Shown piece by piece: positions 20-53,129 of a stretch of 56,533 nt of DNA. The notes below the pieces were generated by a model that had not been told where the DNA came from, made no database searches, and was given only the letters and a program-made list of their open reading frames with translations. The translations under genes were made by a program, and so were the position numbers. The DNA is from a virus. Lineage: Duplodnaviria > Caudoviricetes. Location: the IMG/VR virus record IMGVR_UViG_3300028792_000027, positions 1-56,533 of that record. One strand, 5' to 3'. Every line of letters begins with the position of its first letter. Within the stretch, counting starts at the first letter, position 1.

Positions 20-40
20 CCGGACGAGCCTGGGGATAGT
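20..40 (+). promoter_or_regulatory. CCGGACG-box promoter (leaderless)
   Basis: CCGGACG-N8-GATAGT-N7-GTG(48). Confidence 0.8.
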
Positions 41-47
41 CCGTCCC

Positions 48-1718
48 GTGCCGAACATAACCGTGATGATGGATAAGAGCATCATCGGCTACGGCTACCA
101 GGGTGAAGTTATCTCCACCCCGTCCACCACGGAGACGGATTACATGCTGTCCGTGGGGGAGATGCACCTCTACGACGGGCCGGTCGCTCCGACGGCGCGG
201 CCGGTGCCTGTGTATTCGGTGAACAGGGTGACGCCGGATTCGTTCGGGGACGTGGAAATCACCATCAGCGGCGGGTCGGGGACGGTCCGGTCGGTGAACG
301 GTTCGCTGCCGGACGGCTCGGGGAATGTGACGGTGACCACGGCGGGTGGTGTGACCGTCGTCGATAACGGGGACGGGACCGCGACGATCACGTCCGACGG
401 CACCGGCGGCGGTGGGGGGTCGGTCGGTGGTGGTGTGACGGTGGTCGATAACGGGGATGGGACGATCAGCATCGTCGCGTCCTCGGGCGGCGGCACCGTC
501 ACCGTCGGAACAACAGCGGGCACGGTCGCTGCGGGTGACGACTCCCGGATTACGGGCGCCGCGCAGAAGGCATCCAACCTCGCCGACCTGGTGAACAAAC
601 CCACCGCGCGCGCGAACCTTGGCCTGGGCGGCGCGGCCACCCTCAACGTAGGCACCACCACAGGCACGGTCGCGGCCGGGAACGACTCCCGCCTGTCGAC
701 GGCGGTGCAAACCGGGTCGGCGGCCGGGGGTGACCTGTCCGGGACGTACCCGAACCCGACGGTCGGGAAGATCCTGGGCGTCGCCGTCACCGGGACGAGC
801 GCGGCGGGGAAAACGATCCTCGGCGTCGACGCGGGGAACGCGGCATGGTCGGCGATCCCCGGCTCAACCCTCGCCTCGACCATCGCGTCCCTGCGGCCTG
901 TGTATCCGACACCCGGCTCCGGCTCGTATTCGTTGGTCTGGTCCGACTCGTTCCCCGTGACCGGTGGGGGTGCGACCGGCCCGATCGACCCGTCCAAGTG
1001 GCAGTTTCAGCAGGGGACGGGCAACGCCTACTTCAACGGCGGGTGGGGCAACACCGAGCTTGAGGTTTACACCACGTCCCGCACCAACACCGAATGCACG
1101 TCCGCTGGTTTGGAGATCCGCCTGCTGAACCAGTCCACCACCGGCTACGACGGCGCCGGGTCCTGGACATCGGGGAAGGTCCTGACTAAGGGCCTGTTCG
1201 CGGCCGCCTATGGCAAGGTGCAGGCTACGATCAAAGTTCCGTACGGGAAGGGGGCGTGGCCCGCGTTCTGGATGCTCGGCGCGGACTACCCCCAATCACA
1301 ATGGCCGAGTTGCGGCGAGATCGACATTATGGAGATCGGGCAGGGGCAGGACTTCTTCACGGTGCATGGGACGGTGCACGGGCCCGGGTACGCCGCGCAG
1401 TGGGGGCCCACCGGGGCGCACACGCACAGTTCGCGGCTCGATGGGGCGTTCCACACGTACAGCGTGGAGTGGCTACCGGACCGGCTTATCTGGTCGTTCG
1501 ACGCCACCCCCTACTTCACGCTCCTCAAGACGGACGTGCCGCAACCGGCGGATTGGGTGTTCGACCACCCCTTCTACATTCTCCTGAACGTCGCGGTCGC
1601 GAACGGCGGGTTCCCCGGCGCCCTCGACGTCGCCTCATTCGCGACCGGCACGTACGGCGGTTTCACCGGCCCCGCAGCGGTCATGCAAGTGCAGAACGTG
1701 TCCGTCTACCAAAAGTAG
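48..1718 (+). CDS. Virion fibre/decoration protein: shared N-terminal domain, fibre repeats, C-terminal GH16 (laminarinase-like) domain
   Basis: GH16 motifs GAWPAFWMLG, WPSCGEIDIME, FHTYSVEW, FDHPFYILLN; NLADL..ARANLGLG and VDNGDGT repeats. Confidence 0.85.
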   Translation: MPNITVMMDKSIIGYGYQGEVISTPSTTETDYMLSVGEMHLYDGPVAPTARPVPVYSVNRVTPDSFGDVEITISGGSGTVRSVNGSLPDGSGNVTVTTAGGVTVVDNGDGTATITSDGTGGGGGSVGGGVTVVDNGDGTISIVASSGGGTVTVGTTAGTVAAGDDSRITGAAQKASNLADLVNKPTARANLGLGGAATLNVGTTTGTVAAGNDSRLSTAVQTGSAAGGDLSGTYPNPTVGKILGVAVTGTSAAGKTILGVDAGNAAWSAIPGSTLASTIASLRPVYPTPGSGSYSLVWSDSFPVTGGGATGPIDPSKWQFQQGTGNAYFNGGWGNTELEVYTTSRTNTECTSAGLEIRLLNQSTTGYDGAGSWTSGKVLTKGLFAAAYGKVQATIKVPYGKGAWPAFWMLGADYPQSQWPSCGEIDIMEIGQGQDFFTVHGTVHGPGYAAQWGPTGAHTHSSRLDGAFHTYSVEWLPDRLIWSFDATPYFTLLKTDVPQPADWVFDHPFYILLNVAVANGGFPGALDVASFATGTYGGFTGPAAVMQVQNVSVYQK

Positions 1719-1723
1719 GAGCC

Positions 1724-1939
1724 ATGGTGCCGATCCGGGTGCGGCGTGGTACCGCCGCCGAGTGGGCCGCGAAGAACCCCGTCCTCGCCGCCGGCGAGTT
1801 GGGGGAGGCGACCGACACCCGCGTCCTGAAGGCCGGTGACGGTGTGACGGCGTGGGTGGACCTGCCCGGCCACGTACCCGGCACCTCCGGCATGACCCTC
1901 GTCGATAACGGGGACGGGACGGTCACCATCAGCGTGTAG
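1724..1939 (+). CDS. Small protein with Mtd_N/hyaluronidase-N-like domain
   Basis: AGGAG RBS, ATG 1724; IRVRRGTAAEWAAKNPVLAAGELGEATDT..KAGDGVTAW. Confidence 0.75.
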   Translation: MVPIRVRRGTAAEWAAKNPVLAAGELGEATDTRVLKAGDGVTAWVDLPGHVPGTSGMTLVDNGDGTVTISV

Positions 1940-1940
1940 C

Positions 1941-1961
1941 CCGGACGCGCCTTCGGAAACT
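1941..1961 (+). promoter_or_regulatory. CCGGACG-box promoter (leaderless)
   Basis: CCGGACG-N8-GAAACT-N7-ATG(1969). Confidence 0.8.
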
Positions 1962-51163: not shown

Positions 51164-52290
51164 TGACGGAGTACACCTATTTGGCGGCGGACCGGGCGAC
51201 CGGCCGACTGTTGGCGGAACTGCCGTTGCGGTCGGTGCAGTACGACCTGCGCGTCAACGACGCCGCGACGCTGCAATGCGAACTTATCCTCGACGAGGCG
51301 CCGTCCGCCGTCGACCTCACAGGAAGCGTCCGCACAAGCATTCTCGTGAACCGGGGCGATTCGCTGATGTTCGGCGGCACCATCTGGGGCCGCCAATACA
51401 CCGCCTCGACCCGGACGATGCGCCTCGACGTGGGCGACACGCAGTCATACCTCGACGCGCACGTGCTGATCACATCCGACTTGAACTACAAGCAGGTCGA
51501 CCAATTGGCGATAGCCCGGTCGCTGGTGCAGTACGCGAACGCGAAAACAGGAGTCGCCCTGAACCCCACCTACACCGGGACGACAGTGTCCGGGGTTCGG
51601 CGGGACCGGTCCTACCTGGGCGCGGACGGCGCACCAGTCGGGCAACGCCTGAAAGAACTCTCCGCACTGGAAGGCGGGTTCGACTTCAGGTGGGTCCCGT
51701 ACTGGGACAACGGCGTCGGCTCCGTCGTCCGCCGCGCGCTGCAACTCGGCTACCCCACCCTCGGCAGAACCTACCCCACGTCGCAGCTCGTGTTCGAGAT
51801 GGACGTCGACACCATCGACTACGGCTGGACGGAGGACGGCCAAACCGTCGCGTCCACCGTCTACACCACCGGAGCCGTGAAAGAAGGCTCACCCGCGAAC
51901 GCCCAGCCACCCCGGTACACCGCCGACGACCCCACCGTGAGAGTCGCCGGGTACCCGCGCATGGAAGCCGCCGAATCGTTCTCCGACATCACCACCCCCT
52001 CGGTGCTGGCGGCGCACGCGAGAGGGAAACTCGCGCTGACCAGGATGCCGCTGCAAACATTCACCCTCACCATCGCCTCCATAGCGGCATCCGCCGCGCC
52101 ACAGTTGGGGGAGTACCTGCCAGGGGATCACTGCCTGACCCGCATCCCGAGGGGTGACGGGCTGTACCGGTACGGCGCGGAAATCGTGGGTCTCATCACC
52201 GCTGTCAGCGTCGCGGTGGACGAGGAAGGCAACGACACGATAACCGTCACCATCGCCCCCGAATCCATCGCTCAGGGGGTCCCTCGGTGA
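51163..52290 (+). CDS. Minor tail/baseplate hub protein
   Basis: GRLLAELPL, FGGTIW, GVRRDRSY, GFDF, LGYPTLG. Confidence 0.75.
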   Translation: MTEYTYLAADRATGRLLAELPLRSVQYDLRVNDAATLQCELILDEAPSAVDLTGSVRTSILVNRGDSLMFGGTIWGRQYTASTRTMRLDVGDTQSYLDAHVLITSDLNYKQVDQLAIARSLVQYANAKTGVALNPTYTGTTVSGVRRDRSYLGADGAPVGQRLKELSALEGGFDFRWVPYWDNGVGSVVRRALQLGYPTLGRTYPTSQLVFEMDVDTIDYGWTEDGQTVASTVYTTGAVKEGSPANAQPPRYTADDPTVRVAGYPRMEAAESFSDITTPSVLAAHARGKLALTRMPLQTFTLTIASIAASAAPQLGEYLPGDHCLTRIPRGDGLYRYGAEIVGLITAVSVAVDEEGNDTITVTIAPESIAQGVPR

Positions 52291-52946
52291 CGGCGTACCC
52301 GAAACCGCCGTCCACCGCCGCCTTGCTGCGGTCCATGCATCAGCGCCTGACGCGGCTCGAAGCGCAGGTCACGAACCGGACGTTGACCGGCCTACCGCCC
52401 GGTACGTACGCCGCGACGGTCATCGCCAACGGCGGCATGGAAACCGGCGTCGGGCAGTGGGTCACCCTACCCGCCTACGGCCTCCCCGGTACCGTCACAG
52501 CGAACACGGCGACACCCATCGTCGGGGCGGGGTCGTTGCGGGTCACCGAACGGGCCTACTCCTCCACCCCCGTCGCGTACTGCCCCACCGGGCAGCCATA
52601 TTCGCCGACACCCGGAGTGGACGTGTTCCCCACGGCGGCGGGGGACCAGTGGCTCGCAGCCGCGACCATCCGCACCTCCGTCGACGGTTGGGGTAACACG
52701 ACGTTGACGACGGTGTACGGCACAACGCCGGGGGATTGTTTCGTCAACGACGGCGCCAACCAGGACTGGGTGGCGGCGGCCGTCACGTCACCCGTCGGCG
52801 GCACGAGCCTCGATATTGACGGGTTGACGACGTGCCCCGACGGCCGGGCCTACGTGGGGCTCGTCGTGTGCGCCGACGACCTAGGCGGGATACCCGTCCC
52901 GTGGACGTGGGACCTCGACACCGTGACCCTGCAACTCAGGCTGTAG
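52287..52946 (+). CDS. Minor tail protein with carbohydrate-binding-like domain
   Basis: RLTRLE coiled start; NGGMETG..W, WDLDTVTL. Confidence 0.65.
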   Translation: MTAYPKPPSTAALLRSMHQRLTRLEAQVTNRTLTGLPPGTYAATVIANGGMETGVGQWVTLPAYGLPGTVTANTATPIVGAGSLRVTERAYSSTPVAYCPTGQPYSPTPGVDVFPTAAGDQWLAAATIRTSVDGWGNTTLTTVYGTTPGDCFVNDGANQDWVAAAVTSPVGGTSLDIDGLTTCPDGRAYVGLVVCADDLGGIPVPWTWDLDTVTLQLRL

Positions 52947-52947
52947 G

Positions 52948-53083
52948 CGGCCGGGTCGCTCGGGAATCAAACCCGTGTCAGCCAGGAACCGCCCGGCCTT
53001 CACCGCTGAGAGAAGGACGGACCAGCGAGTCCCAGCGGCTAGGAGCCGACTCCTGTGAGGCCGCCTCAACCCGACCCGGCCGT
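52948..53083 (-). ncRNA. Candidate structured ncRNA with T-loop-like arm
   Basis: 11-bp terminal stem, five internal helices, TAGACT -10 box 7 nt upstream. Confidence 0.6.
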
Positions 53084-53108
53084 GTACGCAAGTCTAACGG
53101 GGCCGACC

Positions 53109-53129
53109 CCGGACGCGGCCGCTCACACT
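53109..53129 (+). promoter_or_regulatory. CCGGACG-box promoter (leaderless)
   Basis: CCGGACG-N8-CACACT-N7-GTG(53137). Confidence 0.85.

What the first reader, a model, noticed from the sequence alone, without database searches (positions are those of the whole stretch)
20..53129. 18-copy non-canonical promoter regulon: CCGGACG-N8-nAnnnT-N5-7-start codon
Seen: CCGGACG occurs before gene starts with CGGACG beginning at + strand 21, 1942, 4596, 4780, 8900, 10984, 18479, 24004, 29650, 32580, 40971, 42926, 45758, 53110 and - strand 21470, 29638, 40309, 40982. In all 18, exactly 8 nt later is a hexamer with invariant A2 and T6 (GACACT six times). In 16, a start codon follows 5-7 nt later with no room for a Shine-Dalgarno; the other two have leaders with an RBS. 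Established: A2/T6 are the key -10 bases for sigma70-type factors, and leaderless mRNAs are common in actinobacteria. Inference: the box sits near -27..-21, far closer than a -35 element (16-18 nt spacer), and compensates for a weak first -10 position. This implies a dedicated phage activator or unusual sigma factor, not encoded in this window, that switches on structural, lysis and MTase genes gene by gene.
Basis: partly seen in the sequence, partly recalled or inferred. Interest (0 to 1): 0.9.

Follow-up and report, generated by a model that had tools for sequence, protein, structure and literature searches.

The report
Phage promoters with a -26 box
An uncultured soil phage of actinobacteria puts the same short two-part signal directly in front of about nineteen of its genes; it is most likely a private promoter type whose messages begin on the start codon, built like a recently described bacterial promoter class that replaces the usual -35 box with a box near -26.

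Summary
CGGACG-N8-nAnnnT occurs 19 times against 3.9 +/- 1.9 in shuffles. All 18 listed sites are recovered, each lies between genes and points at the gene behind it, and 16 are followed by GTG/ATG after 5-7 nt with no ribosome-binding site. The box is invariant and the 8-nt spacing rigid. The 19th site lies inside the MuF gene, 6 nt before an in-frame ATG, which suggests a nested product.

A distant relative (L118, 37-46% protein identity) keeps the motif inside its MuF gene and before its capsid gene. Closer relatives lack it.

My best reading is a family of leaderless, probably late, promoters: a -10-like hexamer plus a box at -28..-21 in place of a -35. This is the geometry of PafBC 'sigma adaptation' promoters (tGTCgg-N10-tAnnnT, PMC8635444), but with a different box sequence.

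The window has no sigma or WYL domain and is incomplete. There are no RNA data.

The scan has noted other box-plus--10 leaderless promoter arrays on other phage DNA, but not this motif.

The parts
20..50 (+). Promoter unit: box 20-26, hexamer GATAGT, 7 nt, GTG 48. The gene is a GH16 tail-fibre-like protein, 48-1718.
1941..1971 (+). Promoter unit: hexamer GAAACT, 7 nt, ATG 1969. The gene is an 873-aa fibre-like protein.
4595..4624 (+). Promoter unit: hexamer GACAAT, 6 nt, ATG 4622. The gene is a 51-aa hydrophobic protein.
4779..4808 (+). Promoter unit: hexamer TAGGTT, 6 nt, GTG 4806. The gene is an 832-aa protein with a weak GH26 hit and an E1_FCCH domain.
8899..8928 (+). Promoter unit: hexamer GATGAT, 6 nt, GTG 8926. 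The gene is a DUF1360-like membrane protein, followed by a D12-class methyltransferase at 9252.
10983..11013 (+). Promoter unit: hexamer GACACT, 7 nt, GTG 11011. The gene is a 286-aa fibre-like protein whose N-terminal domain is shared with the genes starting at 40956(-) and 40282(-).
18478..18508 (+). Promoter unit: hexamer GACACT, 7 nt, GTG 18506. The gene is the portal.
   Evidence: The N-terminus fits its homologues.
21443..21471 (-). Promoter unit: hexamer GACAGT, 5 nt, ATG 21445. The gene is a DUF1996 protein, 20633-21445.
24003..24032 (+). Promoter unit: hexamer GACACT, 6 nt, GTG 24030. The gene is a 971-aa MuF-like fusion protein.
25080..25109 (+). Internal promoter unit inside the MuF gene: hexamer GATGAT, 6 nt, in-frame ATG 25107 (codon 360). 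It is predicted to give a nested 612-aa C-terminal product.
   Evidence: The same arrangement is seen in L118.
29610..29639 (-). Promoter unit: hexamer GACACT, 6 nt, GTG 29612. The gene is a 124-aa protein of unknown function. It stands back to back with the capsid promoter.
29649..29669 (+). Leadered promoter unit: hexamer TAACCT, then a leader of about 87 nt with AGGAGA before ATG 29763 (major capsid protein).
   Evidence: The box and hexamer are conserved before the L118 capsid gene.
32579..32599 (+). Leadered promoter unit: hexamer TACCGT, then a leader of about 20 nt with GGAGGA before ATG 32626. The major tail and adaptor genes follow.
40280..40310 (-). Promoter unit: hexamer GACACT, 7 nt, GTG 40282. 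The gene is an 85-aa fibre-like paralogue.
40954..40983 (-). Promoter unit: hexamer GACACT, 6 nt, ATG 40956 (144-aa paralogue). Its box abuts the box of the opposite promoter, and together they read as the palindrome CCGGACGCGTCCGG.
40970..41000 (+). Promoter unit: hexamer CAGCAT, 7 nt, ATG 40998. The gene is ParB-like, followed by a C5 methyltransferase.
42925..42954 (+). Promoter unit embedded in the 3' end of the methyltransferase gene: hexamer CACACT, 6 nt, GTG 42952 (phrog_810 protein).
45757..45787 (+). Promoter unit: hexamer GAAACT, 7 nt, GTG 45785. The gene is the tape measure protein, followed by minor tail genes.
53109..53139 (+). Promoter unit: hexamer CACACT, 7 nt, GTG 53137. The gene is a 416-aa protein with a weak GH25 hit, followed by papain-like peptidase genes. 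This is probably the lysis block.

Best explanation
The motif is a family of at least 19 phage promoters. Counted from the start codon as +1, each has a -10-like hexamer nAnnnT at about -12..-7 and an invariant box CCCGGACG at about -28..-21, exactly 8 nt upstream of the hexamer. None has a -35 element.

In 17 of the 19, transcription should begin on or one base before the GTG/ATG, so the mRNA is leaderless. One of these 17 lies inside the MuF gene and would give a nested C-terminal product. The two promoters for the most abundant virion proteins instead carry a TAnnnT hexamer, a leader and a Shine-Dalgarno sequence.

The genes served are almost all virion and lysis genes, so this is probably the late class.

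Inferred mechanism: the host RNA polymerase with its primary sigma factor reads the hexamer. A box-specific protein takes the place of the sigma region 4 / -35 contact. This is how PafBC works at its -26 element ('sigma adaptation') and how MotA/AsiA work in T4. The adaptor is not identified. It is more likely phage-encoded, among the unknown early proteins or in the missing part of the genome, than host-encoded.

Shown: the motif, its rigidity, its placement and its conservation in one distant relative. Inferred: the transcription start sites, the timing and the adaptor.
For: 1. Enrichment and rigidity.
- 19 sites against 3.9 expected.
- Spacer 8 occurs 19 times, spacer 7 four times and spacer 9 never.
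- The full pattern with a start codon occurs 17 times in the 56.5-kb window, against 16 times in 3.12 Mb of the other 274 fetched loci, which were themselves partly selected for the box.

2. Placement.
- All 18 intergenic sites point at the next gene. The box often begins 2-4 nt after the previous stop codon.
- No position upstream of -30 is conserved, so there is no -35 or UP element.

3. Translation logic, from 62 tentative gene starts.
- The 16 box genes have no Shine-Dalgarno sequence.
- The other starts have one (15), overlap or abut the upstream gene (14), or are unclear (12).
- The two leadered box sites do have a Shine-Dalgarno sequence.
- A start codon without a ribosome-binding site is translatable only at a 5' end.

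4. Divergent pairs. Only 41 nt separate ATG 40956(-) from ATG 40998(+), and both units lie inside that gap. A second back-to-back pair sits at 29619-29669. No upstream translation is available there for coupling.

5. Internal calibration. Four box-less genes carry TAGTAT, TACAAT or TATAGT 6-7 nt before the start codon. The same distance is therefore used with canonical -10 boxes.

6. Conservation.
- L118 (portal 39%, MuF 46%, capsid 37% identity) has the unit in its MuF inter-domain linker with an in-frame GTG, and before its capsid gene with a TACCGT hexamer and a leader.
- DNA identity there is confined to the motif.
- The 18-position capsid-promoter pattern hits only L118 in IMG/VR. I derived that pattern from both sequences, so the informative part is that nothing else matches.
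- Of the 32 loci that hit the strict pattern, L118 is the only clear relative. One other locus, L297, has a weak 27% match to the tape measure protein.

7. Precedent. PafBC promoters read tGTCgg-N10-tAnnnT, with the box at -28..-23, no -35 and a weakly conserved first -10 base (PMC8635444). [quoted passage not shown]
Against: - No RNA run holds the phage, so no transcription start site has been observed.
- The box shares no GTC triplet with the PafBC element.
- The window has no WYL, Sigma70_r2, r4 or r4_2 domain. Its only recognisable DNA binders are a HicB-like RHH protein (RHH_1, E 7.7e-7) and a weak Arc-like hit.
- Relatives with 60-66% portal identity lack the motif and use Shine-Dalgarno leaders. 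Conservation therefore rests on a single 13-kb fragment.
- An invariant box could also reflect recent copying of one cassette.
- The first hexamer base is G in 13 of 19 sites, which is unusual for a primary-sigma -10.
Confidence: 0.55

Rival explanations
1. The hexamers are constitutive -10-only promoters, and the box is an operator for a repressor that sits in the RNA polymerase footprint. It would keep virion genes off early in infection or in lysogeny, like the asymmetric, orientation-specific 'stoperators' of cluster A mycobacteriophages (recalled, not checked in a paper here).
For: - The site is asymmetric, is present in many copies in short intergenic gaps, and always has one orientation relative to transcription.
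- Many actinobacterial promoters need only a -10 (PMC8635444 passage).
- RHH-type DNA binders are encoded in the window.
Against: - An exact 8-nt spacing in 19 of 19 sites, with diverged spacer sequence, is what is expected of two elements read by one complex, not of an operator.
- The hexamers are weak: T at the first position in only 3 of 19.
- No integrase or recognisable immunity repressor was seen in the proteins I scanned.
Confidence: 0.15
2. Both elements are read by a dedicated sigma or sigma-like factor (phage- or host-encoded) with an unusually short distance between its two DNA-reading parts.
For: [quoted passage not shown] The function of the repeats is unknown (PMC7302621, section 12 and passages).
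- A2 and T6 are invariant.
Against: - Six-frame searches found no Sigma70_r2, r4 or r4_2 domain in the window, and no Sigma70_r2 in five related records, two of them at least 94% complete.
- To my knowledge no sigma-70-family factor uses an 8-nt gap (recalled).
- The 401 sampled actinomycete genomes show at most 3 copies each of the box with GACACT, about the level of the backwards control.
Confidence: 0.15
3. The motif acts in RNA: as a translation start signal like the start-associated sequences of cluster K and EF phages, as an rRNA-pairing reinitiation site, or as a cleavage site that creates leaderless mRNAs.
For: - It lies immediately before start codons.
- Start-associated sequences are known in actinophages (PMC7302621 passages).
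- ACA is present in some of the hexamers.
Against: - Start-associated sequences sit at the ribosome-binding-site position and pair with the 16S 3' end. This motif has no such complementarity.
- The complement of the box is absent from two actinobacterial 16S rRNAs.
- There is no shared secondary structure: mean z -0.13 over the 19 sites.
- The divergent pairs have no upstream transcript or translation to act on.
- The two leadered sites place the motif 20-87 nt from the start codon.
Confidence: 0.05
4. The motif is a DNA-level site with no role in expression, such as a module-boundary or recombination sequence, or the binding site of the ParB-like protein.
For: - It marks gene boundaries in a genome in which accessory islands interrupt the conserved virion gene order.
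- The only palindromic double box lies in front of the ParB-like gene.
Against: - A recombination site does not explain the invariant A and T of a -10-like hexamer at a fixed 8 nt, the fixed 5-7 nt to the start codon, or the missing ribosome-binding sites.
Confidence: 0.03

Closest known systems
PafBC-dependent 'sigma adaptation' promoters of mycobacteria and other actinobacteria (PMC8635444; passages read)
   Same: - Both are two-part promoters with a -10 hexamer and a specific box at -28..-23, with no -35. Here the box covers -28..-21.
- The gap is the same: 10 nt after a 6-nt box there, equivalent to 8 nt after the 8-nt box here.
- The first -10 base is weakly conserved in both.
- Both belong to actinobacteria.
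   Different: - The box sequence differs: CCCGGACG here against tGTCgg, and the GTC triplet is absent.
- These promoters belong to a phage and serve virion and lysis genes, not a host DNA-damage regulon.
- Almost all are leaderless.
SiwR-dependent promoter of M. smegmatis (PMC10693628; passages read)
   Same: It needs the -26 region, where a GGA triplet is conserved. The box here has GGA at about -25..-23.
   Different: SiwR binds a 19-bp imperfect palindrome at a single operon. Here the box is a single asymmetric 8-mer at 19 promoters. I could not compare the SiwR site sequence itself, because figures are not held.
T4 middle promoters: MotA box plus AsiA-remodelled sigma-70 ('sigma appropriation'). 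Mentioned in a PMC8635444 passage; the details are recalled.
   Same: A phage-specific box replaces the -35 while the host -10 is kept, and many promoters form one temporal class.
   Different: - The MotA box is centred near -30, about 12 nt from the -10 (recalled). Here the gap is 8 nt.
- The host phylum differs.
- No MotA or AsiA homologue was recognised.
Repeated asymmetric intergenic motifs of actinophages: the 18-bp motif of cluster EC, the repeats of cluster EI, and the SAS/ESAS of clusters K and EF (PMC7302621); also the cluster O leaderless SigA-like promoters (PMC4351075)
   Same: - All are lineage-private motifs in short intergenic gaps, oriented with the gene.
- EC phages share a distant capsid and a virion gene order interrupted by inserted genes.
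- Leaderless SigA-type promoters have been predicted in cluster O.
   Different: - The EC motif lies 21-30 bp before the start codon, upstream of a ribosome-binding site, and its function is unknown.
- SAS lies at the ribosome-binding site.
- None is described as a box at a fixed 8 nt from a -10 that abuts the start codon.
- The supplementary figure with the motif alignments (S10) could not be seen.

Membership tests
PafBC-type sigma-adaptation hybrid promoter | A -10 element tAnnnT of the primary sigma factor | tested here: met
   A2 and T6 are present in 19 of 19 sites. This is by construction of the search, but 19 sites against 3.9 expected shows that it is selected. The first base is T in 3, G in 13 and C in 3 of the 19. 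In the PafBC motif that base is also lower case, meaning at most 50% conserved.
PafBC-type sigma-adaptation hybrid promoter | A specific upstream element at -28..-23, 10 nt before the -10 | tested here: met
   CCCGGACG ends 8 nt before the hexamer, so it covers -28..-21. Positions are counted from the start codon as +1, which is an inference.
PafBC-type sigma-adaptation hybrid promoter | No -35 element | tested here: met
   No column upstream of the box is conserved. That stretch is the 3' end and stop codon of unrelated genes.
PafBC-type sigma-adaptation hybrid promoter | Box consensus tGTCgg with a near-invariant GTC | tested here: not met
   The box is CCCGGACG in all sites. GTC occurs only on the opposite strand and is shifted.
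PafBC-type sigma-adaptation hybrid promoter | Activation by an HTH-WYL protein inserted between sigma region 4 and the DNA | not testable with these tools
   There is no WYL domain in the window or in L118. The host is unknown. This needs biochemistry.
Canonical sigma-70-type -35/-10 promoter | Two hexamers 16-18 nt apart | tested here: not met
   The gap is 8 nt in 19 of 19 sites.
Start-associated sequences (clusters K and EF) | A conserved 13-mer at the ribosome-binding-site position, complementary to the 16S 3' end | tested here: not met
   No Shine-Dalgarno-like run is present in the 16 leaderless units. The complement of the box is absent from two actinobacterial 16S rRNAs.
T4-type middle promoter (MotA box) | A box centred near -30, about 12 nt from the -10; MotA and AsiA proteins | tested here: not met
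   The gap is 8 nt. No family hit of that kind appeared in the Pfam and PHROG scans. The MotA geometry is recalled.
Stoperator-type repressor sites (cluster A mycobacteriophages) | Many asymmetric sites in intergenic gaps with one orientation relative to transcription, bound by the phage repressor | tested here: inconclusive
   The asymmetry, copy number and orientation are met. The fixed coupling to a -10 hexamer is not a stoperator feature. No repressor gene was identified. The stoperator features are recalled.

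The most novel reading that the evidence does not exclude
The box is a -26 element for a WYL-type adaptor that is activated by single-stranded DNA, either a host protein of the PafBC/SiwR kind or a phage-borne copy. 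Late virion and lysis genes would then fire only once phage replication fills the cell with single-stranded DNA. This would be a new way to couple late transcription to replication, and the first viral use of sigma adaptation. The conserved unit inside the MuF gene would add a promoter-driven nested gene to the scheme.
Probability: 0.12. Interest if true: 0.85.

Novelty: new variant of a known kind. Interest (0 to 1): 0.58.

Why it matters
How actinobacteriophages switch on their late genes is largely unknown. Their repeated intergenic motifs are usually reported without a function (PMC7302621).

This case gives a compact 30-nt unit that can be synthesised, with a clear prediction: a transcription start on the start codon that depends on the box and on the exact 8-nt gap.

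It links phage promoters to the sigma-adaptation geometry described for PafBC in 2021. The authors of that work suspected the mechanism to be widespread in actinobacteria.

If a small phage protein reads the box, it would be a new RNA polymerase adaptor. The pair could also serve as an orthogonal expression switch for high-GC bacteria.

The in-frame unit inside MuF suggests that promoters inside genes can split fusion proteins.

Tried and rejected
- **Close relatives.** Megablast of 20 kb against phages found no match. Searches with single proteins (portal, tape measure, MuF) in IMG/VR found nothing closer than 30-51%. The portal profile in IMG/VR, JGI metagenomes and GTDB genomes gave at best 60-66% identity, and none of those loci has the motif.
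The contigs of the 96% and 71% portal relatives (P0001, P0002) could therefore not be read.
- **My own k-mer and top-hexamer scripts.** They found no analogous box in relatives.
- **RNA evidence.** No RNA holder is listed. Laying the contigs of run X1 on the last 10 kb showed only short contigs and said nothing about the genome end.
- **Consensus promoter and terminator scan of 20-40 kb.** Results were at chance level.
- **Hairpin promoter or RNA structure.** There is no shared fold; mean z is -0.13.
- **rRNA pairing.** The complement of the box is absent from two 16S rRNAs.
- **Host regulon.** In 401 sampled actinomycete genomes plus 4 further prophage-bearing genomes, CCGGACG-N8-GACACT occurs at most 3 times per genome, about the level of the control. 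The tally includes one unpublished genome, G036, with one match. The claim does not depend on it. This means 'not found in those searched', and only the GACACT form was tested.
Sigma and WYL searches were negative. Pfam and PHROG scans of about 60 proteins gave no sigma, HTH or WYL-type regulator; the only DNA-binding hits are RHH_1 in 10436-10891(-), found because that protein was not in the earlier batches, and a weak Arc-like hit in 21761-21937(-). tblastn of three early proteins against phages found no match. The atlas gave a HicB/RHH-like lead for the protein at 10436-10891 and nothing for the 64-aa protein.
- **The three proteins that begin MAVVTIQMDK.** I first read them as RHH proteins. 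The alignment shows a shared 45-aa N-terminal domain followed by Gly/Thr-rich fibre-like tails, so I dropped that reading.
- **The CCGGAAYGATC box from another finding of this scan.** It is not enriched here.
- **Literature.** Searches listed no paper on this motif or on a phage promoter with a -26 element. I saw listings only, apart from the four papers cited.
- **Supplements.** These were closed. S10 Fig of PMC7302621 and the PafBC regulon tables may bear on the comparison.

Full report
**What the window is.** The window is the whole of one IMG/VR virus record: 56,533 bp, no terminal repeats, with completeness estimated at 80%. GC content is 65-71%. It encodes:
- a portal, a MuF-like fusion protein, a 611-aa major capsid protein, a major tail protein, a head-tail adaptor and a tape measure protein;
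- several glycanase or fibre-like proteins;
- at least three DNA methyltransferases and a ParB-like protein;
- a probable lysis block.

No terminase or replication gene was recognised, and none of the G001 reading frames outside the virion core matches the window. Part of the genome must therefore be missing.

The capsid protein is at most 36-39.5% identical to those of cultured Microbacterium, Gordonia and Mycobacterium phages; 875 records match, all below 60%. Prophage relatives of the portal, at 27-33% identity, lie in Streptomyces, Nocardia, Rhodococcoides and Pseudonocardia genomes. The host is an unidentified actinomycete. The only DNA run that holds most of the sequence is a soil metagenome.

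**The observation.** CGGACG-N8-NANNNT occurs 19 times against 3.93 +/- 1.91 in shuffles.
- Every one of the 18 lies between genes and points at the gene behind it. The box often begins 2-4 nt after the preceding stop codon.
- The conserved box is CCCGGACG. Nothing further upstream is conserved. The hexamer has A2 and T6, and A at position 4 in 13 of 18 sites. The base after the hexamer is C in 14 of 18. The spacer holds 4 A in 144 positions.
- The exact box followed by NANNNT occurs 4, 19 and 0 times at spacers of 7, 8 and 9 nt. One-mismatch boxes add no site at a gene start.
- The start codon follows the hexamer after 5 nt (1 site), 6 nt (7 sites) or 7 nt (8 sites) in 16 sites. The capsid gene and gene 32626 have TAACCT and TACCGT hexamers, leaders of about 87 and 20 nt, and AGGAGA / GGAGGA.

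**Why these are promoters for leaderless mRNAs.** I classified 62 tentative gene starts. The gene calls are my own crude ones, based on third-position GC and then curated by eye.
- 16 are box units with no Shine-Dalgarno sequence.
- 15 have a Shine-Dalgarno sequence; the capsid gene is among them. One more, gene 32626, is a leadered box unit with a Shine-Dalgarno sequence.
- 14 overlap or abut the upstream gene.
- 4 have a canonical TAGTAT, TACAAT or TATAGT 6-7 nt before the start codon and no box.
- 12 are unclear.

A start codon without a ribosome-binding site can be used only at a 5' end. The four box-less cases show that the phage uses the same -10-to-start distance with ordinary -10 boxes. 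Two of them are the duplicated TTGCTA-N17-TAGTAT promoter noted earlier; I re-read them.

The divergent pair at 40954-41000 leaves 41 nt between two start codons. The two boxes abut as the palindrome CCGGACGCGTCCGG, each lying in the other promoter's spacer. A second back-to-back pair is at 29619-29669. Neither pair has an upstream message or ribosome that an RNA-level signal could act on.

The portal start at GTG 18506 agrees with the N-termini of 34 homologues.

No shared hairpin exists: the mean z of folding energy is -0.13 over the 19 sites. The complement of the box is absent from two actinobacterial 16S rRNAs.

**The nineteenth site.** The match at 25081 lies inside the 971-aa MuF-like gene. 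The ATG 6 nt after its hexamer is in frame, at codon 360. It sits in the acidic linker between the MuF domain (residues about 120-280) and the C-terminal part, which matches PHROGs annotated as head maturation protease or virion structural protein. On its own this could be chance. I estimate a few tenths of one such hit per window.

**Relatives.**
- *Records with 60-66% portal identity (L008-L014).* These include a complete 56.4-kb genome with 77-bp terminal repeats (G001). They share only the virion core with the window, lack the motif, and start the portal gene with GGAGGA, overlapping the upstream gene.
- *G001's own signal.* G001 has its own repeated TTGACC...TATGGT promoter with a GGTCTGG/CCAGACC repeat.
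- *The window's accessory islands.* In the window the conserved core is interrupted by accessory islands, and box units stand where the core resumes: at the portal, MuF, capsid and gene 42952.
- *A distant fragment, L118.* A whole-IMG/VR scan for the box with GACACT returned only single hits, one of which was L118. L118 is a 13.3-kb fragment whose portal, MuF, capsid, tail and adaptor proteins are 28-46% identical to the window's.
- *The first L118 site.* It is in the MuF linker, with GTG 6 nt after GACACT and in frame, at codon 286 of 1063. The two internal sites lie in the same inter-domain linker, but the protein alignment does not place them in the same column.
- *The second L118 site.* It is in the gap before the capsid gene, with the shared run CCCCACCCC(C)GGACGG, a TACCGT hexamer and a leader, as in the window.
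- *Extent of DNA identity.* It is confined to the motif at both places.
- *How specific the match is.* A pattern of 18 specified positions taken from the two capsid promoters hits nothing else in IMG/VR. The strict pattern CCGGACG-N8-GACACT-N6-RTG hits 32 loci, each once, and L118 is the only clear relative among them. L297 has a weak 27% match to the tape measure protein.
- *What this shows.* The motif is under selection in at least two distant phages. This also makes the internal MuF unit credible.

**Mechanism.** Counting the start codon as +1, the hexamer lies at -12..-7 or -13..-8, and the box at -28..-21. This is not a -35/-10 promoter.

It is the geometry of the PafBC promoters of mycobacteria. 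Their consensus is tGTCgg-N10-tAnnnT, with the box at -28..-23 (the '-26 element') and no -35. PafBC inserts its HTH domains between sigma region 4 and the DNA, which is called 'sigma adaptation'. The authors suggest the principle may be widespread in actinobacteria, and they compare it with MotA/AsiA of phage T4 (PMC8635444, passages). A second WYL activator, SiwR, also needs the -26 region, where a GGA triplet is conserved (PMC10693628, passages). The box here has GGA at its centre.

The box sequence is not the PafBC consensus, so I do not file these as PafBC promoters. I infer that they work in the same way, with an unknown box-specific adaptor.

The window has no Sigma70_r2, r4, r4_2 or WYL domain in six frames. 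The only recognisable DNA binders are:
- a HicB-like protein with an RHH_1 domain, 10436-10891(-), E 7.7e-7;
- a weak Arc-like 58-aa protein, 21761-21937(-).

Genes behind the box-less, host-type promoters are the natural place for an early-made adaptor, as is the missing part of the genome. These are the 23947-21510 operon, the small Cys-rich proteins at 20588-20391 and 29204-29001, and the 64-aa protein at 45083.

A host regulon with the same box was not found. In 401 sampled actinomycete genomes, CCGGACG-N8-GACACT occurs at most 3 times per genome, about the level of the backwards control (4 further prophage-bearing genomes gave none). This test covers only the GACACT form and only a sample.

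**Rivals.** They are set out in the Rival explanations section: a repressor site inside -10-only promoters, a dedicated sigma factor, an RNA-level signal, and a DNA-level site.
- The rigid spacing and the weak hexamers favour a positive, polymerase-coupled reading.
- Neither feature excludes a repressor.
- A sigma factor encoded in the missing part of the genome is also not excluded.

**Comparison and novelty.** Private, oriented motifs in short intergenic gaps are a known but unexplained feature of actinophages.
- Cluster EC has an 18-bp motif together with a phage sigma factor gene.
- Cluster EI has repeats.
- Clusters K and EF have SAS/ESAS.
- Cluster O has palindromes and predicted leaderless SigA promoters (PMC7302621; PMC4351075).
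- Microbacterium phage SM23, the best capsid match, has its own CCTAATAGGTG box next to TAnnnT hexamers.

This scan has already noted other box-plus--10 leaderless promoter arrays on other phage DNA. None has this motif or this 8-nt geometry, and the box of one of them is not enriched here.

My literature searches (listings only) showed no description of a phage promoter with a -26-type element.

I therefore rate this as a new variant of a known kind: a phage-specific promoter class. Its notable points are the match in geometry to sigma adaptation, the near-complete use of leaderless starts for virion genes, and a conserved promoter inside a gene.

Noticed in passing
window 23945-23983 (-), 20586-20624 (-), 29202-29217 (-), 45071-45085 (+), 7317-7333 (+): Box-less promoters of host type stand at leaderless distance. 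TTGCTA-N17-TAGTAT-N6-ATG occurs twice; one copy drives an unlisted 66-aa Cys-rich ORF, 20588-20391(-). The others are TACAAT-N7-GTG, TATAGT-N6-ATG and TACAAT-N7-ATG before a short upstream ORF ahead of the N4/N6 methyltransferase. They serve small non-structural genes and are probably the early class.
   Followed up: partly
window 11011-11871 (+), 40522-40956 (-), 40025-40282 (-): Three box-driven genes share a 45-aa N-terminal domain (MAVVTIQMDK...NGEAH.YSG). It is followed by Gly/Thr-rich tails of different lengths. They are probably interchangeable fibre or decoration proteins with a common anchor.
   Followed up: partly
window 10436-10891 (-): A 151-aa HicB-like protein with a C-terminal RHH_1 domain (E 7.7e-7) is expressed from a TATAGT promoter with a leader. 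It lies divergent to box unit 10983. It is one of only two recognisable DNA binders in the window.
   Followed up: partly
window, whole: No terminase large subunit, DNA polymerase, primase or helicase was recognised. The tail genes at the right end and the fibre genes at the left end would be contiguous if the record were joined end to end. The record is therefore either incomplete or permuted.
   Followed up: partly
G001 (L257-L259), e.g. before the genes ending at 46228, 54241, 44791 and 31097: This complete 56.4-kb relative has its own repeated promoter: TTGACC, a TATGGT/TATAGT/TATTGT -10, and a GGTCTGG...CCAGAC inverted repeat. It is followed by a leader with AAGGGAGA. The regulatory scheme is different on the same virion core.
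   Followed up: no
L326 (Microbacterium phage SM23), e.g. before 32342, 35827, 9933(-) and 16011(-): A repeated CCTAATAGGTG box lies 2-5 nt before a TAnnnT hexamer (TATACT, TATAGT, TAGACT, TAGGCT). In one case the unit is leaderless. Several of the others are followed by a shared GTCAGCATCCGCCAC leader.
   Followed up: no
window 42925-42955: Box unit 42925 lies wholly inside the last codons of the C5 methyltransferase gene, and the GTG of the next gene overlaps that gene's TGA stop (GTGA). The promoter is therefore written in coding sequence.
   Followed up: no
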